A stretch of DNA of 64,000 nucleotides. Origin: Candidatus Poribacteria bacterium (GTDB lineage: Bacteria; Poribacteria; WGA-4E; WGA-3G). Below, in pieces: positions 32,536 to 56,073 of this stretch. Positions within the stretch are counted from its first letter, which is position 1; every line of letters begins with the position of its first letter. The DNA lies in NCBI GenBank assembly GCA_007571305.1, contig RKRR01000119.1:21954-85953 (forward strand), read 5' to 3'. The translations under genes and the position numbers were made by a program. The notes under the pieces are model-generated. The model did not search any database. It worked only from the letters and a program-made list of their open reading frames with translations, and had not been told where the DNA came from.

Positions 32536-35328
32536 TTAACCACCGTGGCATCTCTTATATTTCTTGCCGCTTCCACAAGGACAGGGTGCGTTTCTACCGA
32601 CCTTCGGCATGTTTCCCATTGCCTGCCGTGAAGCGAATTCGGCATCATCACTACTTGCAGTTGCCCTGCTACCCTGGGGTGCCCTCGGCTGTGGTCTACG
32701 TTGTCTACCTGTCCGTCGACTGGGAACCCGGCGCGGTGCTTCTGTATTGACGCGAGATTTGAAGATGAATTCACTGACCTGTTCTTCAATCTGTTGATAC
32801 ATACTTTCAAAGACAGTGAGTGCTTCGTTTTTGAAAACAACGATTGGGTCTTTGCCGCCATATCCTGCGCCGAACCGAATACCTTCCTCAATATAGTCGA
32901 TGTTATGGAGGTGTTCTTTCCAGTGATCATCAATCCTATCCAAAAGGAGTAGACGTTCAAGAACGCGCATCATCTCTGGCCCCATTTCGGCTTCGCGTTC
33001 CTCATAAGCGGCACGCAGTGTTTCCAGTGCCTGTTCTTGAATCTCTTCTGGACTCGCTTGCGCCAAAGGCATCTTCCACGTTGGCTGGATTGGGAATGTG
33101 GTCGTCAACCACTGTTGGAACCTATCGGGGGTCTCAAGCGGACTTCCCACCTTTTCCCCCATATTGTCCTCTATTCCATCTCTGACGACCCTCTCAATCA
33201 TCCCCCAAATCGTGGTTTTGAGGGAGGTAGGAGTTTTAGCATTCTTTTCAGCGAGCGCGGCGAGTCCTCCATCTTCGGCTGTGCCTTCGTGTTCTGATAA
33301 TTCGGAGACATCTGTAGCGGAAGCCAAGACGGTGTCACGCAAAGTGTAGATGGTATCGCGCTGTGTATCCATAACATCATCGAATTTCAGGAGATTTTTT
33401 CGGATCTCGAAATACATCTGTTCAACACGTGTCTGAGCTTTCTCAATGGACTTCGTAACCCACGGATGCTCTAAGGGAACACCATCATCCATTCCGACAC
33501 GTGTCATCAACCCTTGTAAACGCTCAGATCCGAATTTTCGCATCAATTCGTCTTCAAGGGAAAGGTAGAATCGAGATGAGCCTGGATCTCCCTGTCTACC
33601 GGATCGTCCACGGAGCTGGTTATCAATACGTCGGGACTCGTGGCGTTCGGTGCCGATGATATGTAGACCGCCAGCGGCCAATACCTTTTCTTTCTGTTCG
33701 TCGCAAACGGCTTGTGCTTCTGCAAGTGCTGCTTGGTATTCTTCGGACTCTGGAGAGAGTGCCTCTGTCTTAGTTTTCTGTTTCCGTAGCGTTTCGATTG
33801 CCATACCTTCGGGGTTACCGCCAAGCAGAATGTCCACACCTCGCCCCGCCATATTCGTTGCGATAGTTACAGCACCAGGAACACCAGCCTGTGCGATGAT
33901 ATCGGCTTCGCGTGTGTGTTCCTTAGCGTTCAGAACCTGATGTCGGATTTTCCGATGTTTCGTCCTGAGCATCTTGCTCAATTTCTCGGAATTTTCAATC
34001 GAAACAGTGCCAACAAGGACTGGACGCCCCATTTCGGTCTGCTCGACGATATCTTGTAAGACAGCACTGTATTTTGCGTTCTCGGTACTGTAAATTTGGT
34101 CGGAATGGTCAATTCGGACCATAGGTTCGTTAGTGGGGATGACAGAGACCTCTAATCCGTAGATGTGGGCGAATTCGTTCGCTTCCGTTGCCGCGGTACC
34201 GGTCATACCTGCAAGTTTATCGTACATGCGGAAGTAATTTTGATAGGTAATCTTAGCACCCGTCTCGCTCTCCTCTACGACTTTAACGCGTTCCTTCGCT
34301 TCGATGGCTTGATGGAGTCCTTCGCTGAGCCGCCTCCCAATCTGCTTTCGTCCTGTGAATTCGTCAACGAGGAGGACTTCGCCATTTTCGACGAGATAAT
34401 CGACATCGCGTTTGTAGAGCTGATGCGCAGTGAGTGCTTGATTGACGTGATGCACCATAGCGATGTTCGTGTGTTCGTAAAGGTTGCCTACACCGAGGCG
34501 ACGTTCGACTTCTTCAACGCCTTCATCGGTAAGGGTTACACTGCCTCGCGATTTTCCCTCTTGATCGATTTGGAAGTGTTCGCTCTCCCGGAGTTGAGCC
34601 ACGACGCTGTTAATTTGCCGATAAAGTTCTGGCGGTTTACCGGAGGGTTCTGAGATGATGAGCGGGGTCCGGGATTCATCAATGAGGATGCTGTCAACTT
34701 CGTCAAGGATAGCATAGACGTGTCCGCGCTGTACTTTATCTTCAATCGAGAGTGCTTTGTTGTCCCAGAGATAATCGAATCCAAATTCGCTGTGAACACC
34801 GTAAGTGATGTCTGATTTATATCCCAGCCTTTTCTGCTCCTTCGGCATGAGGCTCAGCGTCAATCCAACGGAGAGTCCGAGGAAGTTGTATATCCTGCCC
34901 ATCCATTCAGCATCCCGGCGTGCCAGATAATCATTGACAGTCGCGAGATGCACACCTTTTCCAGTCAAGGCATTTAAATAAACAGCGAGGGTCGAGGTGA
35001 GTGTTTTGCCTTCACCTGTGCGCATCTCTGCAATAGTGCCTTGGTGGAGCGCGATACCTCCCATAATTTGAACATCATAATGTCGCTGTTTTAAGGTTCG
35101 CACCGCGGCTTCACGGACGACAGCAAAGGCATCTGGTAAGAGGTCATCAAGCGATACACCAGCATCCAACTGTCTGCGAAATTCTGGTGTTTTGGATTGC
35201 AGTTGTGCGTCGGTGAATTTTTTGACTTCAGGTTCGCGCTGGTTGACGGCCTCTACGATGTCTCGAAATTTTCTGACATCGCGATCCTCTTTGCTACCGA
35301 AGACTTTAGTTATCATTTTTTGGAACAT
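32536..35328 (-). CDS. secA: preprotein translocase ATPase SecA
   Basis: [22 protein letters not shown]-terminus, [29 protein letters not shown], and a C-terminal zinc tail [14 protein letters not shown]. Confidence 0.97.
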
Positions 35329-35405
35329 CTTTTTACCTATCTGCTCTTTAGCACCTCTCACATTGTGGAAGGCGATGTATCTTTAAGTCATGATAGACGT
35401 GGTAT

Positions 35406-36533
35406 TCATCCTTCATTCGCTCCAGTTGATTGCGATTCAAAGGGGACTAACAAATTCTGTCCGTCGAACCTCTTTCGCACTATCGTATAAATTATCGTGT
35501 TTCCGGCAGAGGCGATTGAAAACAGGTATGCAATTACTAACCCCGCCCCCATGAGGAACGTGATTGTCAAAAAGAGAGCAGTCACTGGGGTCGTGACCGC
35601 CGCTATTCCTGTCAGTGTAGACGTATGATCGCTTGTACCGATGTTGAAGACTCCGAGACTATTAATATAGGGCAGTGCTGCTATCTTTTCAACAACACCA
35701 CCGAGCCATACGTTTGCGTAGCTCATACATTGCTGCATCACTTCGGTGTGAAAGAGGCGCGTCGGAAGCAGCACGATCGAAAAGCCCGCAAGGCAAAAGA
35801 AAGCCCAAATGGGCACGAAAATAAATTTGATAAGGAGCAACATCGCCTCATAACACACTAACAGCCAAGATTTGTTCCAAACCATTGCGAACTGCTGATA
35901 AATTATCTCAAAGGCATCAGCACCTGTCGTAGCGGCAACTGCTGGCACAAAGAGCAGGCTCACACTGAAAACCATTACGATCAATGCCATCAGAAGACCG
36001 AAAAAAAATCCGATAGGCATGAAAAGTGAGGCGAGCATGAGGAAAGGTTTGCCCACTGCCGGTAACTTCGCGATTCCTGCGATACTGAGAGGAACTATCG
36101 CGAGAAATACCTGGATGAGAAGTAAGCCGATGAACGCGCCAAAAACGGATTTCCAATGTCCTTTGAGGAAAGTTAAAGCATCCCCGACCGAAAAAAAGAA
36201 ATCCCCACGGAGTTGTTCGATGGTGATTTTGGAAGCCACGGTGCTTGCTAAGAAGAAGATGCACGCGAAACTCACTATCCCTATCCACATTGCGATTTCA
36301 GTTGTCTGTGTAAGTTCTGCATCACCGAACGGAGGTAGAGGTAAGAGTGCATACTTGTTCCAGAAGTCCTGCGCGGCACTACCTCCTACAAAGACGAGGC
36401 TGAGATACACCAAAGTTTCGTAAATTAGATATGCGAGAACGAGCCCGATGAGATGGACTGCGATCTTTCGCCCACTGAATCCGTAGCGGATAACTTGGAA
36501 AATATCCCTGAAATCGAAGTAACGTTTTTCCAT
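35406..36533 (-). CDS. polytopic integral membrane protein of unknown function
   Basis: 375 aa with about 8 hydrophobic segments and no motif I recognise. It ends 44 bp upstream of secA on the same strand. Confidence 0.6.
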   Translation of the reverse strand: MEKRYFDFRDIFQVIRYGFSGRKIAVHLIGLVLAYLIYETLVYLSLVFVGGSAAQDFWNKYALLPLPPFGDAELTQTTEIAMWIGIVSFACIFFLASTVASKITIEQLRGDFFFSVGDALTFLKGHWKSVFGAFIGLLLIQVFLAIVPLSIAGIAKLPAVGKPFLMLASLFMPIGFFFGLLMALIVMVFSVSLLFVPAVAATTGADAFEIIYQQFAMVWNKSWLLVCYEAMLLLIKFIFVPIWAFFCLAGFSIVLLPTRLFHTEVMQQCMSYANVWLGGVVEKIAALPYINSLGVFNIGTSDHTSTLTGIAAVTTPVTALFLTITFLMGAGLVIAYLFSIASAGNTIIYTIVRKRFDGQNLLVPFESQSTGANEG

Positions 36534-36701
36534 AAAAGGGTCTTCTGCTTTTTTGCGTGTTCTTATATTTAATGATACGACAATTGGGGTATTTTGTCAA
36601 GTAGTTATTCGTTGTCAGTCATCGGTTACCGGTTTCAGTACCACCCCTAATTTCCTTTATTAGGAGGCAGAAAGTATGCCATCAGGATATCCGTTCTACC
36701 G

Positions 36702-37418
36702 TTACCGGTCAGTGGGGACTACTTTGGCGGTGACGGGGAGGGTCAATGTTCGTTGATTTGAGAAGTGGACTGTGAGGAGTGATGAGAAGGTGCCTTTGTC
36801 TTTCAGAGGACCGAGTCGGACTGTGACAAGAGAGGTATCTGCACCCGGATTGGGTGTTATCTCCCACGTGAGTGTTTCCTGTCCCGACGGTAGAAGGCGA
36901 GTATTCGATGTGATGAGCGGGGCGTTCACAGTGAGTTTGAAGGTCTTATGATGTCTCGTTTCAGGGCGGATGTTCCCAAACTTGCAAACATTGGGAGTGA
37001 GCGTTGCAAATCGTTTTGCTGTAGCGACAATTGTCAGATGGACAATCGGAGTTTTGGGGCTGTCTGTGAAGAGGGTCGCGGTAGCTGAGGTCTCGTGATC
37101 GGGCAGCGTTTCTGGGTTGAGGACTATCTGGAACGTGCCATCTGTATCCGGTTGGATTATCTCCGGTCCTGTGATTTCGGCATAACTGCACCCTGTGTGA
37201 ACGTTTTGGATGTCGAGAGGGAATTTACCTATGTTTCGTGCTGTCACGTATCGTGTTACCGGTCCTTCCCATTCTGGGATCACTCCGAAGTGGACCTGTT
37301 GAGGCATCAGAACGAGTTCGGCTGCGGGGCCTTGTCGATTGTTGATGAGGAAGACGGCAAGCCCAGAAATCAGCAGTGCGGGGATGATGATGATTGTGAG
37401 GATTCTGCGTTTGGACAT
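36702..37418 (-). CDS. DUF1573 domain protein (membrane-anchored, two Ig-like/PapD-like modules)
   Basis: N-terminal TM anchor. FGVIPEWEGPVTRYVTARNIGKFPLDIQNVHTGCSYAEI matches the DUF1573 pattern (F.FG.v......f...N.G..pL.I..v...C.C). Confidence 0.7.
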   Translation of the reverse strand: MSKRRILTIIIIPALLISGLAVFLINNRQGPAAELVLMPQQVHFGVIPEWEGPVTRYVTARNIGKFPLDIQNVHTGCSYAEITGPEIIQPDTDGTFQIVLNPETLPDHETSATATLFTDSPKTPIVHLTIVATAKRFATLTPNVCKFGNIRPETRHHKTFKLTVNAPLITSNTRLLPSGQETLTWEITPNPGADTSLVTVRLGPLKDKGTFSSLLTVHFSNQRTLTLPVTAKVVPTDR

Positions 37419-37535
37419 AACTCGGTATTTTGTGAGTGAGGACTTCCCACTTGGAAGGTCACACACCTAAAAGCGATTCGTAGAACGACTGCTTCCCTCA
37501 TGAATCGCCTATGCCGTTCCTGAATTGGATGTTTT

Positions 37536-38237
37536 CTATCTCTGCTTGAGTCGTCCCCATATTAGCGTTAATCTTATCTCCGGGGAAACGTTCAGTCCGG
37601 AAATGGTGAAGGAATCCGCCCATGCCGCTCCGACCCACTCATTTGCGATGTTAATGCCTTCCATGACAAAGCCGAGAATTTCGACCTTATCGAAGTTTGC
37701 ATCTTGAAACACTGTACGGAGCGTGCCATCTGCGAATAGTACAAAATGTCCGGCATTAAATTCGAGTTCCATCTTTTCAAGGGTATCCGTTTCCCAGCGG
37801 GTGCGTGGTTCCCTGGAGAGCCGAATTCGGAAGGGATGGCTACTTCCTCTACCGTCGAATCGCCTCGCTCTGATTTCATCTGGGAAAAATACATAGAAGA
37901 ACGGATCCTCTTGCGGAGTATCAGGAAAACGTCGTCCTACACAAAAACCGAAACGCGTTTTGTCACCACCGAAGTCGTTTATCGTGATTATGAAGTTTCT
38001 ATAGGGCGGTGGGAGTGCGATAAATTGATAGAGCTCGTATTGCACATCCCATTCCCGATTGACTTCTGCGTGTAAGAATCCGTCCTCGATTTTCCAGAGA
38101 GAATCGTTCCCGACGACTCGCCATGCTTCAGGATTTTCGGCATCAAAATCGTCGTGCCAAGTCTGGGCGGAGGCGGAAAAAGCACAGTTCATAAGCGTAT
38201 AAAGAAATATGAGGATTGTTGCGTTTATGTTTGACAT
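37536..38237 (-). CDS. secreted DUF1080/LamG-like jelly-roll protein, paralogue B2, with C-terminal VSP..RLT..WG.LK tag
   Basis: Signal peptide ending ...SASA-QTW. W..VGNDSLWKIEDGFLHAE follows the DUF1080-like pattern. Same length (233 aa) and roughly 40% identity by eye to 39237..39938. Confidence 0.6.
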   Translation of the reverse strand: MSNINATILIFLYTLMNCAFSASAQTWHDDFDAENPEAWRVVGNDSLWKIEDGFLHAEVNREWDVQYELYQFIALPPPYRNFIITINDFGGDKTRFGFCVGRRFPDTPQEDPFFYVFFPDEIRARRFDGRGSSHPFRIRLSREPRTRWETDTLEKMELEFNAGHFVLFADGTLRTVFQDANFDKVEILGFVMEGINIANEWVGAAWADSFTISGLNVSPEIRLTLIWGRLKQR

Positions 38238-38376
38238 CGGATGATTTTTAGTTCACATCGCAGTGAGATTTATCAGTTGTCAGTAACCCTTCAACCCCAT
38301 TATCACAGAAACACGTCAGAAGAGTCGGGATCCGGTGCTATTAGAACAGCACCTACAATTCCTGGGGATGCAGAGA

Positions 38377-39117
38377 CTAATTGATTTTTATACAGTCGTA
38401 CCACTGTTGCGTTTTCTTTCCTTTCCGACTCAGGACCCCGGGTTTGCGTTCGACTGGGGGATCGAAGTCTCCATCTTTTTGTTTTAGGACGTTCCAGTCG
38501 GGAGGGAACCATGTTCTGAGGGTTTTGCAGTTGACTTCAACGGTCTCGCCCTCCCATCCACCGATTTTGTAGTACATCGGGCAGACCCATCGTTCCGCGC
38601 CACGGGCATACCGCCGCCAACCGATGACAGAGGCTTGTGCTCGGATAATGTTTCCGTCCCTCCAGTGTCGTTCCACCCCGCTCCACGGATAGCCTGTTGT
38701 TCCGCTCCCTATACTAATTTCATCCCATCCTAAATCGTCTCGGAGCGTAATATAAGAGAAGTTTGTGCCCCACGGTGTGTCGTCTGTGCTGAAATACCAC
38801 CGTTGACCACGATACCACCGGAGAGCGCCTCGAATACTCGAACGGGAAACCGCTGCGCTTTCGATGGTTTCCACAATGTCAAACCGCCCCCTATTGTTAT
38901 AGGGGTTGTGAACACCAGGACAGAGCGTAAGCGAGTTGAGTTCAGGTCCGAACCACGTGCCGTTCACACCGGGCGTTCTATAATAGAAGCCTGAATTCGC
39001 GGGTTGAGCACGCTCCCCGGGGTTCAACCTCGCTCTGGCGTAGGTGCTCCAAAACGCGACGACAAGAACCACCACGAGTAGGCAGGCATCGAAAATCAAA
39101 TCCAAATTTTTTCGCAT
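38377..39117 (-). CDS. membrane-anchored conserved hypothetical protein, paralogue A2
   Basis: N-terminal TM helix. Shares the blocks YYR.PG, WFGPE, TDDTPWGT, GYPWSG.E.HWRDG and C-terminal WYDC with 39975..40763. No family recognised. Confidence 0.6.
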   Translation of the reverse strand: MRKNLDLIFDACLLVVVLVVAFWSTYARARLNPGERAQPANSGFYYRTPGVNGTWFGPELNSLTLCPGVHNPYNNRGRFDIVETIESAAVSRSSIRGALRWYRGQRWYFSTDDTPWGTNFSYITLRDDLGWDEISIGSGTTGYPWSGVERHWRDGNIIRAQASVIGWRRYARGAERWVCPMYYKIGGWEGETVEVNCKTLRTWFPPDWNVLKQKDGDFDPPVERKPGVLSRKGKKTQQWYDCIKIN

Positions 39118-39236
39118 TTTTTCATCTTACCTTGCGGATGATGAGAAGGTCGGTGCGGTTTCCGAACCGCACCGATTCCGAGGTGTCCACTCAATTCTCA
39201 TATCTATCATAGCTGCTAATCGCCGACCAACAAGCA

Positions 39237-39938
39237 TCAAGGCTGCCGCTTCAAGTCTGCCCATGCCGTTGTTAATTTTCGTTTCGGTGAGACTGCAAGT
39301 CCATCAATGGTAAAGGTATCTACCCACGCGCTCCCCGTGTTAACGTCCTCTGTGACAAATCCAGCGAGTACGAAGGCTATCGTATCAATGTGATCGAAGT
39401 TTGCATCCCTGAAGTCGAGACGCGCCTCGCCATTCGCACTCAATTGAAATCTGCCGTTCTTGAAGTGGAGTTCCATCTGTTGAAGTTCGTCGGTGTCCCA
39501 GCGTCTTTGGGGGCCCACAAATACGCCGCCGTCTCTTGAGGCTTGCATATCGTTCGTGAAAAAGAGATAGTAGCCATCCTCCTCCATCTCGGTCACGGGA
39601 TTTTGGAAATGCTTTGCGAGTGCGATACCGAATCGAGCGCGCGCTGCGCCGGCGGTTTCAAGGGTGATCGTAAAGTCATTATAGGGACCGGGATAGGCGA
39701 TGAATTGGTAGCGTTCAAATATGACACTCCATTGATTTTGTGCCTGAATTTCTGCCCTTAAAAATCCATCTCCGACCCTCCAGACAGAATCGTTTCCGAC
39801 GTGTTGCCAGTCATCTACTGCCTCTTGTTCAAAGTGGTCTTCCCAAAAAGCGGCATTCACACTCCCTTGTAAAAGGAGGAACGTATAAACGATAATGAGA
39901 GTGTTTAGCAGATGTGCGACGTTTTTCATTTCGTTCAA
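39237..39938 (-). CDS. secreted DUF1080/LamG-like jelly-roll protein, paralogue B1, with C-terminal VSP..KLTT.W..LK tag
   Basis: Signal peptide present. W.HVGNDSVWRVGDGFLRAE. Paralogue of 37536..38237. Confidence 0.6.
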   Translation of the reverse strand: MNEMKNVAHLLNTLIIVYTFLLLQGSVNAAFWEDHFEQEAVDDWQHVGNDSVWRVGDGFLRAEIQAQNQWSVIFERYQFIAYPGPYNDFTITLETAGAARARFGIALAKHFQNPVTEMEEDGYYLFFTNDMQASRDGGVFVGPQRRWDTDELQQMELHFKNGRFQLSANGEARLDFRDANFDHIDTIAFVLAGFVTEDVNTGSAWVDTFTIDGLAVSPKRKLTTAWADLKRQP

Positions 39939-39974
39939 CGGAGCAAGTTTAGAAACCTCACCAATGAAGAATAA

Positions 39975-40763
39975 CTATTTTAGCGGCAAGCAGTCGTACC
40001 AATTACCTGTCCCTTTTTCGCGGCGGCTGAGTTGGTTGGAATCGGGGCGGAATGTCGGATCCGTCAAGTGCCCCTCGGTGTGACTTAGGACTTTCAAGTT
40101 AAGCTGTCCCGTTCCAGTCGTACAGGTGTAGTTCAGCGTCCCTACTTTGATGTATTTCGGCGCGAGGTATTTTTTGCCAGTGTTCTCACATGGATAGTAA
40201 CCGACTATATCTGACTTAGATTTTACGGAGTCTCCGTCACGCCAGTGTTCCTCGAACCCACTCCAAGGGAATCCGGTGGTACTGTTCCCAGAGTCAATAT
40301 CCGTCCAACCGATCTCGGATGCAAGGGTAATGCGGACGGTATCTGTGCCCCAAGGCGTGTCATCAGTTGCGAAACGCCATTCCTGTTTCCGATACCACCA
40401 CACCTTTCCGGGTCTTGAGGAGGGCCAGACTTGGGCATCTTCTCTGGTATAGATGATGTCAAAGAATCCTGCGTCGTTAAATGGGTGTGCTATCATCTGA
40501 CAAAGCACTCGACTATCGATTTCTGGTCCGAACCAGCGATTTTCGTTTTCGGATGCAATGAATTTGCCTGGGTTTCGGTAGTAATCGCCAGCGGCTTTCG
40601 GAACAGCAATCTCCTGAGTGATGATCCTTTCCCCATCATTATACGCGCCGTGCAAACCAGCATTTGCGGGGATCAAAAAAAATAGCATAGTGACGATTGT
40701 CGTTAGCGTCAGTGTGAAGGAGTATTTATGTGTCATACGGAACGTGTTTGTTAAAAGTTTCAT
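39975..40763 (-). CDS. membrane-anchored or secreted conserved hypothetical protein, paralogue A1
   Basis: ORF 39975..40811. Start set at MKLLTNTF (40763), leaving a 37-bp gap to the upstream gene. Shares conserved blocks with 38377..39117. Confidence 0.6.
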   Translation of the reverse strand: MKLLTNTFRMTHKYSFTLTLTTIVTMLFFLIPANAGLHGAYNDGERIITQEIAVPKAAGDYYRNPGKFIASENENRWFGPEIDSRVLCQMIAHPFNDAGFFDIIYTREDAQVWPSSRPGKVWWYRKQEWRFATDDTPWGTDTVRITLASEIGWTDIDSGNSTTGFPWSGFEEHWRDGDSVKSKSDIVGYYPCENTGKKYLAPKYIKVGTLNYTCTTGTGQLNLKVLSHTEGHLTDPTFRPDSNQLSRREKGTGNWYDCLPLK

Positions 40764-40800
40764 GCCGCCTTTATGGTGGACAGCACGCGGATCATACCTA

Positions 40801-42345
40801 CTACTCTGCAAAGGGTGTGCCGTCTCGCCTCCCTATGTAGATGCGATATGTGGTGCCAGCAACAGGAATATCAATCTGTTTGTGAACAAGCGTCCGTTGA
40901 TAGCGGCCTGTCACCCCGTCTAATACAACGTGAACCGCACGGATATGGAGTTGATAGTGAGTCTCTGTTAGATTGTGGAATTCAAATTTTCCCTGCGCGT
41001 CTGTTTCCACCTCAAACCGATCCAGTGTCATTGACATGTCATAGGGCTGTAATTCCCACGGGTACCATGAACGCGAAACGATAGCATTGTGGACAGGTTC
41101 ACCTGTATCTGCCCAGAAAACTTGCCCTTGAAGTGTTATTGTGGGTTGATCCGCTACAATAAGCACTTGTTCAGGATTCATTGACGCGTCCACGTCAATC
41201 CGGGCCGCCGAGATGTCGTCTCCGACAGTATAGAGAATATATTTTTCCGCAAAAAGTCCATCAATGACAAAAGTAGATGCTGTCACAGGAAAGTGTTTTG
41301 ACAAAATTGGTCTTCGCAATACTAATGGATTCAGGCTTGGCTCCATCTGTCCATCTATGGGGAACACCTTCACAGTATACTGTCCATCAGAGGATATATT
41401 CTGTGGGAGGATTACACGCCCTTTAACGCTCGCCCCTTTCTTGAGTGGTAGAATTGACGGCATCTTGTCAATGTCTACGTTCTCGTAGACTCTCGTAAAG
41501 TACCCCCTTTTGCTGACCTCAAGTGAAAGCAATCGTGGCTCAGTCTCTAATATCTCCATCCGGAAGTTGCCTGCCTCGTTTGTTTCTGTTGATGACAGAA
41601 GTGCGCTGTGCCCCTGGGATGTCGCTGTGTGTCGAGTTGCGTGGATATGGGCATCTGCTATTGGTCGTTTCTGCGCATCGACAACCGTGCCGCTTAACGT
41701 TTTCAACTTCGGTAGATTGATGGAAATCCGCTCCTGTTTTTGTGGGTTCATCGACTCTATAAACGCTATGATAAAACCATTCCGAGAAATTGTCAAGGTG
41801 TATTCGATGGGGTAGAGTTCAGTAAAATGGAAATTGCCTGTGGTATCGGTCTTCACAACGTGTTCAATCGGTGCGGCGGCGCGAAAGAAGTCTGCCGACT
41901 TGTTGTGCATCTTCAGCTCCACAATAAGCCCAGCGACATTTTTCCTCCCAGAAATATTGCCTTGCAGAGGTAGAGTCCGCCTCAACGCAACTATCCTTAA
42001 ATCATAATTATTTTTTCCGGAAATCATCTCCTGTTGTAAACGTTTCGCTTGATATTGCGGATGAAGTGCCATGAGTGCGAAAGCGTAGTAGGTTTGATTC
42101 GCTTTGGGAATGGTCAGCGAAAAAGCACCTTTGATATCTGTTGCCATTGCGTGCGCGAACTCTTGATCGGGATAGACACGGTCAATTTTTTCAGCAGCGA
42201 TGCGTACGAGCACTTCTGGAATCGGCTGTCCATCTTGGGCATCAACGATCCTGCCGTGGAAGGTGATGTTGTCTGGGGTTTGGCAGATACCAGAGGCGGT
42301 ATAGAGAAAAAGAAACAAAATTGAACGACTGATATAATTCTGCAT
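40801..42345 (-). CDS. secreted multi-repeat carboxypeptidase-regulatory-like (CarboxypepD_reg/Ig-like) domain protein
   Basis: The tracked ORF 40801..42561 runs over two tRNA genes. Start set at MQNYISRSILFLFL (42345), which begins a signal peptide. Repeated G.V.D....PI..A.V modules. Confidence 0.6.
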   Translation of the reverse strand: MQNYISRSILFLFLYTASGICQTPDNITFHGRIVDAQDGQPIPEVLVRIAAEKIDRVYPDQEFAHAMATDIKGAFSLTIPKANQTYYAFALMALHPQYQAKRLQQEMISGKNNYDLRIVALRRTLPLQGNISGRKNVAGLIVELKMHNKSADFFRAAAPIEHVVKTDTTGNFHFTELYPIEYTLTISRNGFIIAFIESMNPQKQERISINLPKLKTLSGTVVDAQKRPIADAHIHATRHTATSQGHSALLSSTETNEAGNFRMEILETEPRLLSLEVSKRGYFTRVYENVDIDKMPSILPLKKGASVKGRVILPQNISSDGQYTVKVFPIDGQMEPSLNPLVLRRPILSKHFPVTASTFVIDGLFAEKYILYTVGDDISAARIDVDASMNPEQVLIVADQPTITLQGQVFWADTGEPVHNAIVSRSWYPWELQPYDMSMTLDRFEVETDAQGKFEFHNLTETHYQLHIRAVHVVLDGVTGRYQRTLVHKQIDIPVAGTTYRIYIGRRDGTPFAE

Positions 42346-42445
42346 GAGAATTCTGATTGGGAGGTAGTTCCTACAAAAAGAAAAGCCCCTTAGCAGGAGA
42401 GGCTTGTCTTCTAAAAGAACTATTTTGCGTTTGATTTGAGTGAGA

Positions 42446-42520
42446 TACCCCCGACGAGATTTGAACTCGTGTCGCCGCCGTGAAAGGGCGGTGTCCTTGG
42501 CCAGGCTAGACGACGGGGGC
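42446..42520 (-). tRNA. tRNA-Glu (anticodon UUC)
   Basis: Minus-strand read GCCCCCGTCGTCTAGCCTGGCCAAGGACACCGCCCTTTCACGGCGGCGACACGAGTTCAAATCTCGTCGGGGGTA. It folds as a cloverleaf with anticodon loop CTTTCAC. No CCA is encoded. Confidence 0.9.
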
Positions 42521-42530
42521 AGAAAAAATG

Positions 42531-42603
42531 TGAGCCGTACAGGGATCGAACCTGTGACCACCTGATTAAAAGTCAGATGCTCTACCAGCTGAGCTAACGG
42601 CTC
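42531..42603 (-). tRNA. tRNA-Lys (anticodon UUU)
   Basis: Minus-strand read GAGCCGTTAGCTCAGCTGGTAGAGCATCTGACTTTTAATCAGGTGGTCACAGGTTCGATCCCTGTACGGCTCA. Anticodon loop is CTTTTAA and the T-loop is GGTTCGATCC. Confidence 0.92.
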
Positions 42604-42670
42604 AAGTTAACAACATTTAATAATACCATACTTTAAGACTGATGTCAAATTAAAATTCGAACAGTTTGAC

Positions 42671-43951
42671 TTACCAGAGGGGTTCTCCGAGTTGCACGAT
42701 CTGATCTCTGTCTGGTCCGACCGAGATGATCGGAATAGGCACATCAAGATAATCCTCGACATACGCGATGTAGTCTTTGGTCGATTGCGGAATATCCGCC
42801 GCAGTGCGTGCTTCGGTCAAGGATTGCTGCCATCCGGGTAGTGTTTCATAAACGGGTTCGCATTCCTCTAAGACCTGTAGACTACTCGGAAAAGTCGTTG
42901 TCTGTTTCCCCTTGTAGCGGTAGGCGACACAGACCTGTAGATCGGCAAGCGTGTCAAACACATCCAATTTTGTCATTGCAATAGCGGTAAGCCCATTAAT
43001 TTGTGTGGCATATCGTAGTGCGACGAGGTCTAACCAGCCGCAGCGCCTTGGGCGTTGTGTTGTGGCACCATATTCTTTGCCGATTTCCCGGATTTCCTTA
43101 TCCAAATCGGGTGGCATCTCTGTAGGAAATGGACCACCACCGACGCGCGTGACATAGGCCTTGGAAACACCGAGTATCTCTTCAATTGCTTTGGGGCCCA
43201 TACCGAGCCCGGTGCAGACGGCACCTGCGGTGCAATTAGAAGAGGTAACGTAGGGATATGTTCCGAAATCTATATCGAGCATAGTCCCTTGCGCGCCTTC
43301 AAAGAGGATCCGTTTTCCAGAAGCGAGTGCGTCGTGCATGAAAGCGACGGTATCCGTTACATAGGGTGCGATCCGCTGTGCGTAACTGTGATAAGTTTCG
43401 AGAAGGACGTGTCGTTCGGGTCCACCTATTTGGAGAGCGTCTGCTTTGGTTTCGAGGTTGTAATCCAACTTCTTTTGGAAGTGATCAAACTCAAGGAGGT
43501 CGCCAACGCGAATGCCGGCGTGTCGGTTCATCTTGTCAGAGTAAGTCGGACCGATCCCGCGGGAAGTGGTGCCGATTTTGGTAGCACTCCCCATCTGTTC
43601 CCACTGTTCGACAGTCTTATGATATGGCATGATGAGATGCGCTCGATCGCTGATCTTCAGATTATCGCTGCTGACTTCAATGTTCTGCGCTTGTAGCCGA
43701 TCGATTTCACCGAAAAGCGTCTCCAAATTAATGACGACCCCGTTGCCGATAACGTTCAAGGTATCGGATCGTAAAATACCAGATGGAATCAAGTGGAGAA
43801 TAAACGTCTCTTCTCCGAGAACGATGGTATGCCCTGCGTTATCGCCGCCTTGATACCGAGCGACAATATCCGCATCTGCGGCGAAGACATCCGTCAGTTT
43901 CCCTTTACTTTCATCACCCCACTGTGCGCCTAAGATGACAATGTTTGACAT
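42671..43951 (-). CDS. purA: adenylosuccinate synthase
   Basis: MSNIVILGAQWGDESKGK, GNGVV, TTSRGIGPTY and KLDVFD motifs. Start set at 43951. Confidence 0.96.
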   Translation of the reverse strand: MSNIVILGAQWGDESKGKLTDVFAADADIVARYQGGDNAGHTIVLGEETFILHLIPSGILRSDTLNVIGNGVVINLETLFGEIDRLQAQNIEVSSDNLKISDRAHLIMPYHKTVEQWEQMGSATKIGTTSRGIGPTYSDKMNRHAGIRVGDLLEFDHFQKKLDYNLETKADALQIGGPERHVLLETYHSYAQRIAPYVTDTVAFMHDALASGKRILFEGAQGTMLDIDFGTYPYVTSSNCTAGAVCTGLGMGPKAIEEILGVSKAYVTRVGGGPFPTEMPPDLDKEIREIGKEYGATTQRPRRCGWLDLVALRYATQINGLTAIAMTKLDVFDTLADLQVCVAYRYKGKQTTTFPSSLQVLEECEPVYETLPGWQQSLTEARTAADIPQSTKDYIAYVEDYLDVPIPIISVGPDRDQIVQLGEPLW

Positions 43952-48452: not shown

Positions 48453-49124
48453 TCAGCGATCTGCCAATCCTTTCTTTGCGTCCGCAATTGCCTTGCGGGC
48501 TTGTCGGGTGCCAATATCGTTCAAAGCCCGTTCTGCCATACGTCGGAGATCGGAATTAGGTGCATGCAGTGCCACAATGAGCGAATCAACCGCAGGGGTA
48601 CCGATTGTAGCTAAGGCGCGCACAACAAGACGACGGACGTTCCATTCGGGATCTGTAAGGGTGTTGATGAGGGCGGGCAAAATTGTATCAAGTGGTGTGC
48701 CGATTTCACCCAAGGCATAAGCGGCGTTCAACCGAATCTCCGCCGCGTCTGCTGTTAAAGCATCAATGAGATACGGCACGGCAGGTGCACCTACATTTTG
48801 AAGAGCAACCGAGCCAACGACGCGGATGTTTTCATCGGGGTCCGTGAGCACGGAAATGAGGGCAGGCACGATACGGACAGCAGGGGTTTTGATTTCGCTG
48901 AGTGTCCACGCCGACATCTCACGAATCTGTGGATTGTCATGGGATAGCCCGTGGATGAGTGCATCTACCGCCCCAGGTCCTATCTTGACTAAGGTGTCGG
49001 CGGCTTCGGTGCGACGCACAGCCGCTCTGTCACCAAGTTGGTTGACAAGTGTTTTTATGTGTTGTTCCTGGGACTGACATGCTATCAGACACAGGAAAAT
49101 GAGAAAACAAAAGAAACGTTTCAT
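48453..49124 (-). CDS. HEAT-repeat lipoprotein
   Basis: Lipobox-like LCLIAC after MKRFFCFLIF. Tandem HEAT/PBS-lyase-like repeats (R..A..AL..IG...AVP.LI..L.D). Confidence 0.8.
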   Translation of the reverse strand: MKRFFCFLIFLCLIACQSQEQHIKTLVNQLGDRAAVRRTEAADTLVKIGPGAVDALIHGLSHDNPQIREMSAWTLSEIKTPAVRIVPALISVLTDPDENIRVVGSVALQNVGAPAVPYLIDALTADAAEIRLNAAYALGEIGTPLDTILPALINTLTDPEWNVRRLVVRALATIGTPAVDSLIVALHAPNSDLRRMAERALNDIGTRQARKAIADAKKGLADR

Positions 49125-49385
49125 GGCGTATGAGTGTAGCATAGTTTTCGGCTTTTTACAAGTTACCGTTCTTGGAAACGTGAGGCGTTCAGTTCTTCTG
49201 TAGGAACGGTCCGTGCCCCTCTATACATCCTTTTTTTATCAGGGAACCCTAATTTCTGAACTCATTACTTGAAAAGTGGACACGAAATTTGAAACTTCAC
49301 CAGCGAATTTAGGTTACGTTATTGCAAATTACATCACTAAAGGAGAGCACGGGGTTCGCTTCATGGCGGAAACCGTCAGTAAAAA

Positions 49386-51865: not shown

Positions 51866-52942
51866 ATGTTTATGCTGAACCGCCGAAACGCCTACTCTCT
51901 TTTTGTTATGCTGTTGGTTGCTATCACTGTAGAGCGTAGTGATGCTAACGCTTGGGTGCTGCAGACCGAAGTGCCAACATCCAGAAATGGGACCTCGACG
52001 GCTGTCGTTAACGGCAAAATTTATATCATCGGTGGTGTGCCTTATAGTAACAAGGCAGGACCGGGTTGGTCTGCCCTTCCAACGGTAGAAGTTTATGACA
52101 CGCGTATCGGTGCGTGGGGAAAAGCCGCGGATATGCCAACACCCCGAATCGCTGCGCAGGCTGCGGTTTTTGCTCGTGAAATCTATGTGTTCGGTGGATA
52201 CAGTCGGGGAAAGATTCGCGGTGAAAAAGACCATAAAACCGTTGAAGCCTACAACACACGAACCAATACCTGGTCAAAAACGCGAGACATGCCAACGCTT
52301 CGCCGTGGATTTAGAACAGCCGTTGTTGATGGAAAAATATACGTCATCGGTGGCGCGATTTTCGATAGAGAACGCGATGTTAGAGTCGCCACTGATCTCG
52401 TTGAAGCCTATGACCCGTTGACAGAGCGGTGGAAAAAGCGCGCCAGCATGCCAACCAAACGCATGTGGGTTGATACAGCGGTTGTGAATCATAAAATTTA
52501 TGCAATTGGCGGTGAAGTTTCACCTCGGCATGGTGTCCCGCCTGATGACCAGTTTTTTGCAAGAATTGAGGAATACAATCCAAAAACTGACCGTTGGCGA
52601 AAACACCCTGATATGCCACTATTGCGGTTTTCCTTTTCTACTGTTGCCATCGATAAGAAAATTTATCTGATTGGTGGGTACACTCGGGAGAATGGATTTA
52701 AAACTCTCACCTCAATAGATGTCTATGAACCGAGCTTCAATAGATGGGGGGCAATACCGCCCCTACCAGTGCCCAGAATCGCTCCAGCAGTCGCTGTCAA
52801 TGGTGTCATTTATGTGCTTGGCGGTTTCGTAAGAGGACAGAGGTTCTCGCACGCCGTTGAAGCATTCGATACCGGATTTCGGGCGGTTAACCCAAAAGAC
52901 AAACTTTCAACACTCTGGGGTGAATTCAAGAAAGCCAATTAA
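51866..52942 (+). CDS. secreted Kelch-repeat beta-propeller protein with C-terminal AVNP.DKLSTLWG.FK tag
   Basis: Signal peptide present. Six or more repeats of the ..GKIY(V/I)IGG.. motif. Confidence 0.85.
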   Translation: MFMLNRRNAYSLFVMLLVAITVERSDANAWVLQTEVPTSRNGTSTAVVNGKIYIIGGVPYSNKAGPGWSALPTVEVYDTRIGAWGKAADMPTPRIAAQAAVFAREIYVFGGYSRGKIRGEKDHKTVEAYNTRTNTWSKTRDMPTLRRGFRTAVVDGKIYVIGGAIFDRERDVRVATDLVEAYDPLTERWKKRASMPTKRMWVDTAVVNHKIYAIGGEVSPRHGVPPDDQFFARIEEYNPKTDRWRKHPDMPLLRFSFSTVAIDKKIYLIGGYTRENGFKTLTSIDVYEPSFNRWGAIPPLPVPRIAPAVAVNGVIYVLGGFVRGQRFSHAVEAFDTGFRAVNPKDKLSTLWGEFKKAN

Positions 52943-55281: not shown

Positions 55282-56073
55282 TTAGTATGTGCCGGTTCTT
55301 GACTTAATGCTGCCCCATGTCGTTGTTGCTTTATCACGAGGTGAAACTGCGAGGAATCCTTCGTTCATTATCTCGTTGATTTCGTCCTCACTGAGCGCAC
55401 GCCGCCAGACTGCTGCTTCGTCAATAGAACCGTTCTCAAAGGTATAATTCGGACGATCTTTAGAGCATCCGATCCGCAAGTCCTGATCGTTAGTGCCTTT
55501 GAAATCAAACTTTTCTTCTTTCTCTGCGGCGACTTCGCCATCAACGTAGACCTTCATGGTTGACCCATCATAGGTTCCAACGACATGCTGCCATTTCTTG
55601 GTATCCAGGGCATGTGGCTGGCTCAACGTGGGTCTACTGTTGCCTGTCCCTAAGAACATATTAAAATTCGCACCTCCGTTGAAAGCACCGATGCCGTAGG
55701 AGGAATGCTCACCTCCGTTATGACAGTTTTTGTCGAACCACTGGCCATCAGTTGCCCAAGAGTCCTGATTGATCCAAGCCGCCATCGTGATTTCACCCGT
55801 GATTTTCAGGTCGTCGGAGGCTGGTACATTCACACAATCCGGTCCTACATTTGTAATACGAATCGCATCCCCGTACTTGCCCTTCACAATATCAGTATTG
55901 GCGATGATATCTGCGTCCAGCCCGTTGCCGGAATCGTCAACAATCACCTTACCTTTGACATTATCAAACGTGAAGTAGACGACGAGTCCTTCAGCGAGAT
56001 CTGCCGTGGCGTATCCTGCTGCCATAAGCATCAACGCGCTGAGTAGTACGGCATAACCAAATAGCTTTTTCAC
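55282..56073 (-). CDS. secreted LamG (concanavalin A-like lectin/glucanase) domain protein with C-terminal AVSP.DKATTTWG.IK tag
   Basis: Signal peptide present. Laminin_G_3-like pattern (L..YF.FD......DSSGNG.DA, W.HV..TYDG....VYVDG, IDE..VW.RALS..EI). Confidence 0.8.
   Translation of the reverse strand: MKKLFGYAVLLSALMLMAAGYATADLAEGLVVYFTFDNVKGKVIVDDSGNGLDADIIANTDIVKGKYGDAIRITNVGPDCVNVPASDDLKITGEITMAAWINQDSWATDGQWFDKNCHNGGEHSSYGIGAFNGGANFNMFLGTGNSRPTLSQPHALDTKKWQHVVGTYDGSTMKVYVDGEVAAEKEEKFDFKGTNDQDLRIGCSKDRPNYTFENGSIDEAAVWRRALSEDEINEIMNEGFLAVSPRDKATTTWGSIKSRTGTY

What the first reader, a model, noticed from the sequence alone, without database searches (positions are those of the whole stretch)
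37536..40763. Ancient tandem duplication of a two-gene cassette of unknown function (A1-B1-A2-B2)
On the minus strand the order is A1 (39975..40763), B1 (39237..39938), A2 (38377..39117), B2 (37536..38237). The A proteins have an N-terminal TM anchor and share the blocks YYR.PG, WFGPE, L-C, TDDTPWGT, GYPWSG.E.HWRDG and C-terminal WYDC. I recognise no family. The B proteins are 233-aa secreted DUF1080/LamG-like jelly rolls carrying the C-terminal tag. Each pair is only about 40% identical by eye, so the A+B pairing has been maintained through long divergence. That argues for a functional two-component module, for example a membrane partner plus a secreted carbohydrate-binding or hydrolase unit.
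Basis: partly seen in the sequence, partly recalled or inferred. Interest (0 to 1): 0.65.

Follow-up and report, generated by a model that had tools for sequence, protein, structure and literature searches.

The report
Poribacterial orphan-protein and lectin-fold gene cluster
Four neighbouring genes in a sponge-symbiont (Poribacteria) genome are two old copies each of an exported orphan protein and of a lectin-fold protein; they belong to a conserved, uncharacterised cell-envelope gene cluster, but a single duplication of a two-gene unit is not shown.

Summary
A1/A2 are 39% identical (E 1e-52) and B1/B2 41% (E 6e-60), at the stated coordinates on the minus strand. The organism is Candidatus Poribacteria.

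- **A** is an orphan family: 39 clusters among 1.84 billion representative proteins. It has no Pfam, NCBIfam or PDB sequence match. Its fairly confident all-beta model has no PDB or viral fold match. It looks exported, with four cysteines read as two disulfides; A1 has lost one of them.
- **B** has a concanavalin-A-like jelly-roll fold and only sub-threshold DUF1080 similarity.

A+B linkage is strongly conserved. A2 lies between B1 and B2 in 77/77 species loci with enough flank, and 8 of 9 deeper A homologues whose contigs show flanking genes sit just upstream of a B-type gene. The real unit is larger: CarboxypepD_reg protein–(A1)–B1–A2–B2–DUF1573, elsewhere with rhodanese, MauE/DoxX and STT3.

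The cassette-duplication story is unproven. A1 is missing in 42 of 79 species while B1 is universal. B1 is no closer to B2 than to other B paralogues, and sister relations get 26–27% bootstrap.

B's C-terminal tag (KLATTWGxLK) is widespread in metagenomes on unrelated exported proteins, so A is not its general receptor.

Function is unknown. My best guess is an extracytoplasmic complex centred on A2.

The parts
40801..42345 (-). Secreted protein of repeated CarboxypepD_reg (Ig-like) domains; first gene of the conserved cluster
   Evidence: Pfam PF13620, 4 stretches, E 4e-29. It lies directly upstream of A or B1 in all 79 Poribacteria loci and next to distant A homologues in L081, L086 and L091. 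The mechanical ORF runs to 42561 but overlaps tRNA-Glu and tRNA-Lys, so the real start is taken as the ATG at 42345 (MQNYIS..., signal peptide).
39975..40763 (-). A1: fast-evolving, dispensable paralogue of the orphan A family; exported all-beta protein that lacks one of the four family cysteines
   Evidence: ORF. 39% identical to A2. Orthologues are 61-89% identical and occur in only 37/79 species. AlphaFold2 model: pLDDT 78, pTM 0.73, with no PDB or BFVD fold match. Cysteine pattern C-x-C-C. Probable true start 40736.
39237..39938 (-). B1: secreted concanavalin-A-like jelly-roll protein with a C-terminal tag (KLTTAWADLKRQP, 39237..39278)
   Evidence: ORF. 41% identical to B2. PF06439 at 22.7 bits, below the cut-off. 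Foldseek gives 333 concanavalin-A-like hits. Present in all 79 species loci, and the clade has 100% bootstrap support. Probable ATG start 39929.
38377..39117 (-). A2: the most conserved gene of the cluster; exported all-beta orphan protein with four conserved cysteines (C66, C179, C197, C242)
   Evidence: ORF. Orthologues are 70-95% identical in all 79 species; the median is 88% in loci with A1 and 78% in loci without it, against 58-79% for B1 and B2. The clade has 100% bootstrap support. Cysteine analysis.
37536..38237 (-). B2: second secreted jelly-roll paralogue with a C-terminal tag (RLTLIWGRLKQR, 37536..37574)
   Evidence: ORF. 41% identical to B1. Follows A2 in 77/77 loci with flank. The clade has 100% bootstrap support.
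36702..37466 (-). DUF1573 Ig-like protein with an N-terminal hydrophobic segment; a conserved member of the cluster in near and distant genomes
   Evidence: Pfam PF07610, E 3e-10. It lies downstream of B2 in Poribacteria loci and beside A/B genes in L080, L081, L082, L084 and L092. Probable ATG start 37418.
35406..36533 (-). Multi-pass membrane protein of unknown family between DUF1573 and secA; membership of the cluster is uncertain
   Evidence: No Pfam hit. It keeps this position in L011, L012, L024-L026 and others. A promoter-like site at 36600..36572 (11 of 12 consensus matches) may start a separate transcript.

Best explanation
The four genes are real, old paralogue pairs. They sit inside a conserved, apparently co-transcribed envelope cluster that so far is confined to the Poribacteria lineage: CarboxypepD_reg-repeat protein, (A1), B1, A2, B2, DUF1573 protein.

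Shown:
- All four proteins carry N-terminal export signals.
- A is an orphan all-beta family with no recognisable relative in sequence or fold.
- B has a concanavalin-A-like (lectin/LamG-type) fold and almost no conserved polar residues.
- A2 is by far the most constrained gene of the cluster.
- A-type genes are almost always followed by B-type genes.
- More complete versions of the cluster add a rhodanese plus MauE/DoxX pair, an STT3 oligosaccharyltransferase and sugar-nucleotide genes.

Inferred:
- A and B work together outside the cytoplasm.
- A2 is the conserved core subunit, stabilised by two disulfides (C66-C197 and C179-C242).
- The variable, multi-copy B proteins are non-catalytic, lectin-like binding or structural subunits that A2 binds or organises at the cell envelope, possibly as part of a glycoprotein surface assembly.
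- A1 is an accessory paralogue. It evolves about twice as fast as A2, has lost C179 (leaving C242 unpaired) and has been lost repeatedly.

On origin: the A1/A2 and B1/B2 splits both predate the diversification of the 79 sampled species. Whether they arose in one cassette duplication cannot be decided.
For: - Paralogy.
- Taxon: all 79 genome loci are Candidatus Poribacteria.
- Rarity of A: 39 representative clusters at E<=0.001 among 1.84e9 proteins. No Pfam, NCBIfam or PDB sequence hit. The model (pLDDT 78, pTM 0.73) has no Foldseek hit at E<=0.001 in the PDB or BFVD, with TM-scores below 0.2.
- B fold. B family invariants are mostly hydrophobic.
- Synteny.
- Short same-strand gaps: 36-139 nt between the four genes in the window, and median stop-to-ORF-start gaps of 39-76 nt for A1-B1, B1-A2 and A2-B2 across loci. 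No convincing terminator lies between the genes.
- Constraint: median identity to the window in loci with / without A1 is A2 88/78%, B1 76/58%, B2 79/68%, CarboxypepD_reg 67/56%; A1 is 70%.
- Cysteines: 35 members have all four; all 41 A1-type members lack C179; P0066 and P0190 lack C66 and C197 together.
- Redox and glycosylation neighbours.
- Age of the splits: the A1, A2, B1 and B2 clades each have 100% bootstrap support.
Against:
- One A homologue (L091) has no B-type gene within 8 kb but keeps the CarboxypepD_reg, rhodanese, MauE and DUF1573 neighbours. A may therefore depend on the cluster rather than on B itself.
- A has many invariant charged residues (E35, R47, E59, E86, R103, Q105, E149, H151, R153, K184), which would also suit an enzyme.
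- The disulfide pairing is inferred only from co-loss in two sequences.
- The B1 model is of low confidence (pLDDT 60.6).
- The window itself lacks the STT3, rhodanese and MauE genes.
- Gene linkage across closely related species partly reflects shared ancestry. The independent evidence comes from about 9 deeper lineages or paralogous loci.
Confidence: 0.45

Rival explanations
1. One reading: one ancient tandem duplication of an A-B unit produced A1-B1-A2-B2, and A1 was later lost many times.
For: The two pairs have the same gene order and similar divergence (39% and 41%). The residual DNA matches are spaced at one cassette period, about 1.7 kb. A1 falls outside a 100%-supported A2 clade that includes species lacking A1, which fits an old split followed by loss. 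A1 is clearly prone to loss inside the crown clade. Distant genomes show CarboxypepD_reg-A-B, with A in the position A1 occupies here.
Against: B1 is universal while A1 is present in only 37/79 species and absent from every basal clade. B1+B2 are sisters in only 27/100 bootstraps, and B2 groups with other B paralogues in 46/100. B1 is equally distant from B2 and from other paralogues. A1+A2 are sisters in 26/100. A1 evolves faster than A2, so its basal placement may be a long-branch artefact.
Confidence: 0.35
2. Independent origins: the ancestral core is CarboxypepD_reg-B1-A2-B2 (or CarboxypepD_reg-A-B with repeated B duplications). A1 arose later by duplication of A2 alone, was inserted between the CarboxypepD_reg gene and B1, and then diverged quickly.
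For: A1 is restricted to the crown clade of the species tree. The CarboxypepD_reg-B1 junction is an insertion hot spot that holds toxin-antitoxin and TnpB genes in other genomes. B duplicates freely without A: five extra copies in L064 and upstream copies in many loci. A duplicates without B in L082, which has A-A-B. A1 evolves faster and has lost a cysteine, as expected for a neofunctionalising copy.
Against: A1 is not nested within the A2 clade, whose monophyly has 100% support. The event counts barely differ: about 6 events for a late gain plus losses, against about 7 for an old origin plus losses.
Confidence: 0.4
3. A is a new carbohydrate-active enzyme and the adjacent B proteins are its lectin-like specificity or targeting subunits, for sponge-matrix or the cell's own glycans.
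For: A has many invariant acidic, basic and aromatic residues in loop-like motifs (WFGPE, TxPWGT, PWxGxExHxR, PxYxK). B has the fold of CBM66, PL7 and GH16 proteins. Glycosylation genes lie in the extended clusters.
Against: No sequence or fold similarity to any known enzyme. The motif resemblance to PL7 is only by eye. Conserved residues could equally form a protein interface.
Confidence: 0.2
4. A is the receptor or processing factor for the C-terminal KLATTWGxLK tag carried by B (a sortase- or exosortase-like logic).
For: A is always next to tag-bearing genes, is highly conserved, and has invariant His, Cys and Arg residues.
Against: The tag is widespread in environmental metagenomes on many unrelated exported proteins. 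Only 1 of 120 tag-bearing loci (592 kb) encodes an A homologue, and A has only 39 clusters in 1.84e9 representatives. There is no fold match to sortases. The conserved cysteines behave like disulfide partners.
Confidence: 0.04

Closest known systems
DUF1080 / 3-keto-disaccharide hydrolase family (Pfam PF06439; e.g. BT3469, PDB 4jqt; PDB 3hbk)
   Same: B proteins are small secreted proteins with a concanavalin-A-like jelly roll. 4jqt is the 4th best fold match (E 3.8e-06). There is weak sequence similarity to PF06439 (B1 E 1e-4) and to 3hbk (E 0.27).
   Different: B scores below the Pfam gathering threshold, and B2 has no hit. Only 4/20 family members match at E<0.01. No conserved catalytic-type residues are present. 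B carries a C-terminal KLATTWGxLK tag.
Other concanavalin-A-like lectin/glucanase folds: YesU (PDB 1oq1), PL7 alginate lyases, CBM66, GH16, and the N-terminal half of the botulinum neurotoxin receptor-binding domain
   Same: These are the best fold matches of the B1 model (E 1e-6 to 3e-5, TM-score 0.36-0.5).
   Different: Sequence identity is 7-16%. The model is of low confidence. The match is at superfamily level only and implies no particular activity.
VtrC/ToxS-type periplasmic beta-barrel partner proteins (PDB 5kew)
   Same: VtrC is the second-ranked, though non-significant, PDB fold match to A, and the first of comparable size. From my own knowledge, it is a small protein with an N-terminal hydrophobic segment followed by an up-and-down beta domain that works only with a co-encoded partner.
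   Different: Foldseek probability 0.13, TM-score 0.12-0.18, so there is no evidence of homology. A has four conserved cysteines and a likely signal-peptidase site.
Rhodanese plus DoxX/MauE membrane thiol-redox pairs (M. tuberculosis DoxX-SseA; MauE of methylamine dehydrogenase maturation; from my own knowledge)
   Same: Rhodanese and MauE/DoxX genes sit inside the extended A/B clusters (L081, L084, L085, L091, L092; rhodanese also in L082). A carries conserved cysteines that could be a substrate of such a pair.
   Different: These genes are absent from the window. No functional link has been tested.
C-terminal protein-sorting tags (PEP-CTERM/exosortase, LPXTG/sortase, type IX secretion C-terminal domains)
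   Same: The B tag sits at the extreme C-terminus of exported proteins of many unrelated folds. In the metagenome scan 119 of 121 hits lie within 8 codons of a stop. Its codons vary synonymously, so selection acts on the protein.
   Different: The tag is only about 12-15 residues long and has no transmembrane segment. It matches no NCBIfam model. No cognate processing enzyme has been identified, and A is not co-distributed with it.

Membership tests
DUF1080 / 3-keto-disaccharide hydrolase (PF06439), for B | Pfam HMM score at or above the gathering threshold (26.8 bits) | tested here: not met
   B1 scores 22.7 bits (E 1.1e-4) and B2 has no hit. 4 of 20 B-family members match at E<0.01, best 3.8e-5.
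DUF1080 / 3-keto-disaccharide hydrolase (PF06439), for B | Concanavalin-A-like beta-jelly-roll fold | tested here: met
   The B1 model has 333 PDB matches at E<=0.001, all concanavalin-A-like, including the DUF1080 protein 4jqt. Caveat: model pLDDT is 60.6.
DUF1080 / 3-keto-disaccharide hydrolase (PF06439), for B | Hydrolase activity and conserved active-site residues | tested here: inconclusive
   The only invariant polar residues across 20 B paralogues are Y124 and D178. There was no reference active-site alignment to compare with.
Tandemly duplicated two-gene cassette (A-B to A1-B1-A2-B2) | Both gene pairs are homologous and in the same order | tested here: met
Tandemly duplicated two-gene cassette (A-B to A1-B1-A2-B2) | A1 and B1 are co-distributed across genomes | tested here: not met
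   B1 is in 79/79 loci and A1 in 37/79. In loci without A1 the CarboxypepD_reg gene abuts B1, or the gap holds toxin-antitoxin or TnpB genes.
Tandemly duplicated two-gene cassette (A-B to A1-B1-A2-B2) | A1 is sister to A2, and B1 sister to B2, relative to other family members | tested here: inconclusive
   Neighbour-joining bootstraps: A1+A2 26/100 and A2+L081-A 54/100; B1+B2 27/100 and B2+other paralogues 46/100.
Sortase-like or other tag-processing enzyme, for A | Sortase beta-barrel fold with a His-Cys-Arg triad, and co-distribution with its sorting signal | tested here: not met
   No sortase among the Foldseek hits. The cysteines behave as disulfide pairs. An A homologue is present in only 1 of 120 tag-bearing metagenome loci.
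CARDB Ig-like domain (PF07705), for the central part of A | A match to the Pfam CARDB model | tested here: not met
   The A profile picks up the 20-repeat CARDB protein P0213 through the motif RWYRSTDATITTSDTxVGTD. No A member matches PF07705 even at E<=5.
TadE-like / pilin-type N-terminus, for A | A match to Pfam TadE (PF07811) or a G|F(T/S)L(I/L)E prepilin site | tested here: not met
   The conserved N-terminus RKQLELIxxALLPVxVLxIGF of distant members gives no Pfam hit, and no Gly-Phe prepilin site is visible.

The most novel reading that the evidence does not exclude
A defines a structurally new, disulfide-bonded extracytoplasmic protein family. A2 would be the core of an envelope machine specific to the Poribacteria lineage, made of the CarboxypepD_reg protein, A, multiple lectin-fold B subunits and DUF1573, serviced by a rhodanese/MauE thiol-redox pair and an STT3 oligosaccharyltransferase. 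This machine would build or anchor an N-glycosylated surface structure used in the sponge symbiosis. A1, with its free cysteine, would be a lineage-specific modulator.
Probability: 0.2. Interest if true: 0.6.

Novelty: new variant of a known kind. Interest (0 to 1): 0.38.

Why it matters
Poribacteria are uncultivated, dominant sponge symbionts, and how their cell surface works is essentially unknown. This locus is conserved in all 79 sampled species. It contains one gene (A2) that is almost as constrained as purA yet has no recognisable relative or fold, tightly linked to expandable lectin-fold proteins. That makes it a concrete, testable candidate for a lineage-specific envelope or host-interaction structure. 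The side result may have wider reach: the KLATTWGxLK C-terminal tag is widespread in environmental bacteria on many exported proteins, which points to an undescribed protein-sorting or anchoring signal.

Tried and rejected
- **Known families for A.** Pfam, NCBIfam and PADLOC scans of A, B and the neighbours gave nothing for A. A PDB sequence search with the A profile gave no hit at E<=10.
- **Fold search for A.** Foldseek against the PDB and BFVD gave nothing at E<=0.001. The weak VtrC, LolA and porin-like hits were not pursued because their probabilities are 0.2 or less.
- **A and B as distant homologues.** hhalign probability 1.4%; rejected.
- **A as the receptor for the C-terminal tag.** Rejected on distribution.
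- **The tag as a conserved DNA element.** Rejected, because its codons vary freely.
- **RNA elements.** An Rfam scan of 35000..43000 found only two tRNAs.
- **Defence or toxin-immunity reading.** No PADLOC hit.
- **Literature.** Searches for DUF1573+MauE, Poribacteria+DUF1080, 'LATTWG' and a Poribacteria sorting signal found nothing relevant. The TafC paper only explains a LamG-domain hit of another ORF.
- **CARDB link.** Motif-level only.
- **B homologue search.** The third homologue search, on B1, returned only close orthologues of 69% identity or more and added little.


Full report
**1. Observation**

- A1 and A2 align over 223 residues at 39% identity (E 1e-52).
- B1 and B2 align over 229 residues at 41% identity (E 6e-60).
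- At the DNA level only three stretches of 38-60 nt at 71-75% identity survive, spaced 1686-1704 nt apart. The copies are old.
- Orthologues suggest slightly shorter true starts: A1 at 40736 and B1 at 39929.

**2. Organism and family size**

- The best hits to A1, A2 and B1 that carry a source name are 'Candidatus Poribacteria'. All 79 genome loci found with the A profile come from Poribacteria assemblies.
- A profile search of 1.84 billion representative proteins found only 39 clusters (19 at E<1e-30). Most are 220-265 aa proteins with the same architecture.
- A has no hit in Pfam, NCBIfam or PADLOC, and none in PDB sequences at E<=10.
- The AlphaFold2 model of A1 is fairly confident (pLDDT 78, pTM 0.73, core blocks above 90). 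It shows an N-terminal helix followed by a meander of long antiparallel strands.
- Foldseek finds no match at E<=0.001 in the PDB or in BFVD, and TM-scores stay below 0.2.
- A is therefore an orphan family, possibly with a new fold. AlphaFold DB was not available to check this further.

**3. Features of A**

*Export signal.* The N-terminal hydrophobic segment ends in a conserved AxA motif (PANA|G in A1, YARA|R in A2; A35 is invariant). In more distant members the N-terminus itself is unusually conserved (RKQLELIxxALLPVxVLxIGF). That leaves an uncleaved or specially recognised signal possible. It gives no TadE or pilin hit.

*Cysteines.* Across 83 members there are four conserved positions, in A2 numbering C66, C179, C197 and C242.
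- 35 sequences have all four.
- All 41 A1-type sequences lack C179.
- P0066 and P0190 lack C66 and C197 together.
- I infer disulfides C66-C197 and C179-C242. On this reading A1 keeps an unpaired C-terminal cysteine (WYDC).

*Conserved polar residues.* Positions conserved at 90% or more include E35, R47, E59, E86, R103, Q105, E149, H151, R153 and K184, plus many Trp, Tyr and Gly. This pattern fits either a ligand or active site or a protein interface.

**4. Features of B**

- B1 touches PF06439 (DUF1080, 3-keto-disaccharide hydrolase) only below threshold, and B2 does not match. Only 4 of 20 diverse B paralogues match at E<0.01.
- The B1 model is of low confidence (pLDDT 60.6). Even so it gives 333 PDB matches at E<=0.001, all concanavalin-A-like jelly rolls: YesU 1oq1, the DUF1080 protein 4jqt, PL7 lyases, CBM66, GH16 and the botulinum neurotoxin receptor-binding domain.
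- Family invariants are almost all hydrophobic; only Y124 and D178 are polar. I therefore favour a binding or structural role over hydrolysis.
- A and B are not related to each other (hhalign probability 1.4%).

**5. Synteny in Poribacteria**

I ran tblastn and ORF analysis on the 79 loci.
- 37 loci repeat the window's order: purA, CarboxypepD_reg protein, A1, B1, A2, B2, then DUF1573, a membrane protein and secA.
- 42 loci have CarboxypepD_reg, B1, A2, B2 with no A1.
- In the loci without A1, the CarboxypepD_reg gene either abuts B1 or is separated from it by toxin-antitoxin (PIN/VapC-like, HicB-like) or TnpB genes. None holds a degraded A1.
- Any A1 orthologue elsewhere in those genomes would have ranked among the top hits, and none did.
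- A2 lies between B1 and B2 in all 77 loci with enough flank.
- Gaps are short, with median stop-to-ORF-start distances of 39-76 nt for A1-B1, B1-A2 and A2-B2. In the window there is no convincing terminator between the genes.
- The cluster begins just after tRNA-Lys and tRNA-Glu (42444..42603). This also shows that the long mechanical ORF 40801..42561 really starts at 42345.
- A2 is the most constrained member. Median identity to the window is 88% in loci with A1 and 78% in loci without it. The matching figures are B1 76/58, B2 79/68, CarboxypepD_reg 67/56 and purA 93/85; A1 is 70%.

**6. Deeper homologues**

| Locus | Gene order |
|---|---|
| L081 | CarboxypepD_reg, A, B, B', HEAT, B, rhodanese, MauE/DoxX, DUF1573, B, STT3 |
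| L080 | STT3, ... IS, A, B, B, B, DUF1573, B, CarboxypepD_reg, B1, A2 |
| L082 | GT2, fucose pyrophosphorylase, A, A, B, DUF1573, B, B, CarboxypepD_reg, rhodanese |
| L084 / L085 | A fragment (L084 only), B, B, rhodanese, MauE, DUF1573, A, B, B fragment, epimerase; in L084 also a large membrane protein and CarboxypepD_reg |
| L086 | CarboxypepD_reg, A, B |
| L089 | A, B |
| L092 | A, B, B, rhodanese, MauE, DUF1573-like |
| L091 (exception) | CarboxypepD_reg, A, rhodanese, MauE, DUF1573-like; no B within 8 kb |

L080 lies in the same genome as L045, just upstream of its main locus. L082 is a second locus in a Poribacteria genome.

But the conserved unit is a larger envelope cluster, and the number of B genes per A is variable. 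The window itself has no STT3, rhodanese or MauE gene.

**7. Was it a cassette duplication?**

- Neighbour-joining trees give 100% bootstrap support to each of the A1, A2, B1 and B2 clades. Both splits therefore predate the radiation of the 79 species.
- The deeper branching is unresolved. A1+A2 are sisters in 26/100 replicates, against 54/100 for A2 with the L081 A. B1+B2 are sisters in 27/100, against 46/100 for B2 with other paralogues.
- Mean identities are flat: B1-B2 40.7%, B1-other 40.0%, B2-other 42.0%.
- On a species tree built from B1+A2+B2, every basal clade lacks A1. The crown clade has A1, with patchy losses in one subclade.
- Counting events gives about 6 for a late gain plus losses and about 7 for an old origin plus losses. 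Parsimony does not decide.
- A1 evolves about twice as fast as A2, so its basal placement could be a long-branch artefact.

My conclusion is that the paralogy is real and old, and that a single cassette duplication is possible but not demonstrated. B and A each duplicate on their own elsewhere: L064 has five extra B copies, and L082 has A-A.

**8. The C-terminal tag**

- All B paralogues end in P-x-x-K-L-A-T-T-W-G-x-L-K plus 0-4 residues. The window's copies are degenerate versions.
- The codons vary synonymously, so selection acts on the peptide.
- Two unrelated exported proteins in the window also carry the tag. One is a kelch/mutarotase-like protein ending at 52942. The other is a LamG-like protein at 55282..56073, which matches only the laminin-G-like part of haloarchaeal TafC.
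119 of 121 matches lie within 8 codons of a stop.
- By eye, the carriers include LamG-like, subtilisin-like, esterase-like, BNR-like, LVIVD-repeat, beta-helix and Ig-like proteins.
- Only one of those 120 loci (L174, the same lineage as L084) encodes an A homologue or the rhodanese/MauE pair.
- The tag is therefore a widespread C-terminal signal. It is undescribed as far as NCBIfam and the searchable literature show. A cannot be its general receptor.

**9. Interpretation**

*Shown:*
- An exported orphan beta protein (A), strongly constrained in its A2 copy.
- Exported lectin-fold proteins (B).
- Persistent A-to-B adjacency inside a cluster of Ig-like proteins (CarboxypepD_reg, DUF1573), with thiol-redox and glycosylation genes in fuller versions.

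*Inferred (confidence about 0.45):* A and B act together outside the cytoplasm. A2 is a disulfide-stabilised core that binds or organises variable, non-catalytic B subunits in an envelope or surface assembly. A1 is a dispensable accessory copy with modified cysteine chemistry.

*Rivals:* A as a new carbohydrate-active enzyme with B as its lectin subunit (about 0.2); A as a tag-processing factor (about 0.04, disfavoured by distribution).

**10. Novelty and score**

B is a new, divergent branch of a known superfamily. A is a new family with no detectable relative. The cluster has no described counterpart, but no function is demonstrated. Finding a lineage-specific hypothetical operon is not in itself surprising. 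I rate it a new variant of a known kind, with interest 0.38. The tag result is the item with the broadest potential reach, but it lies outside the finding as given.

Noticed in passing
window 37536..37574(-), 39237..39278(-), 52901..52942(+), 55282..55332(-); loci L093-L212: The C-terminal motif P..KLATTWGx[LIVM]K is not specific to Poribacteria or to B. A metagenome DNA scan hit its 120-locus limit, and 119 of 121 matches lie within 8 codons of a stop. The carriers are exported proteins of many folds (LamG, subtilisin, esterase, BNR, LVIVD, beta-helix). The motif is not in NCBIfam or the searchable literature, so it looks like an undescribed, widespread sorting or anchoring signal.
   Followed up: partly
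window 42444..42603 (-): tRNA-Glu(ttc) and tRNA-Lys(ttt) lie between purA and the cluster. The mechanical 586-aa ORF 40801..42561 overlaps them, so the CarboxypepD_reg gene really starts at 42345.
   Followed up: yes
L042, L044, L050, L053, L054, L056, L059, L060, L066, L068, L071, L073, L076 (between the CarboxypepD_reg gene and B1): In many Poribacteria that lack A1, the CarboxypepD_reg-B1 junction holds small toxin-antitoxin-like pairs (PIN/VapC-like plus antitoxin, HicB-like) or a TnpB-like gene. This is an insertion hot spot exactly where A1 sits in the window.
   Followed up: partly
L064:7284-10928; L080; L082: B-type genes form larger arrays: five extra copies follow A2/B2 in L064. Some genomes carry a second complete cluster with its own A copies, next to STT3, GT2 and fucose-pyrophosphorylase genes.
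   Followed up: partly
window 48453..49142 (-): This ORF, which starts with a hydrophobic, lipoprotein-like signal sequence (by eye), is 42% identical (E 3e-21) to the HEAT-repeat gene embedded in the L081 A/B cluster. It may be a dispersed member of the same system.
   Followed up: no
window 55282..56073 (-) and 51866..52942 (+): Two more tag-bearing exported proteins. One is LamG-like and matches the laminin-G-like part of haloarchaeal TafC (NF052521, E 1.5e-16). The other is a kelch/mutarotase-like beta-propeller.
   Followed up: partly
P0213 (3587 aa), against A profile positions 95-158: The A profile matches 13 repeats of a 20-repeat CARDB autotransporter-like protein through the motif RWYRSTDATITTSDTxVGTD, which resembles WWYRxQEWRFATxDTPWGTD in A. 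No A member matches the CARDB model itself, so this is probably a shared hairpin motif rather than homology.
   Followed up: partly
window 36572..36600 (-): A strong sigma-70-like site (TTGACA, 17 nt spacer, TATCAT; 11 of 12 matches) lies just upstream of the 375-aa membrane-protein gene. That gene and secA may therefore form a separate transcript from the A/B cluster.
   Followed up: no
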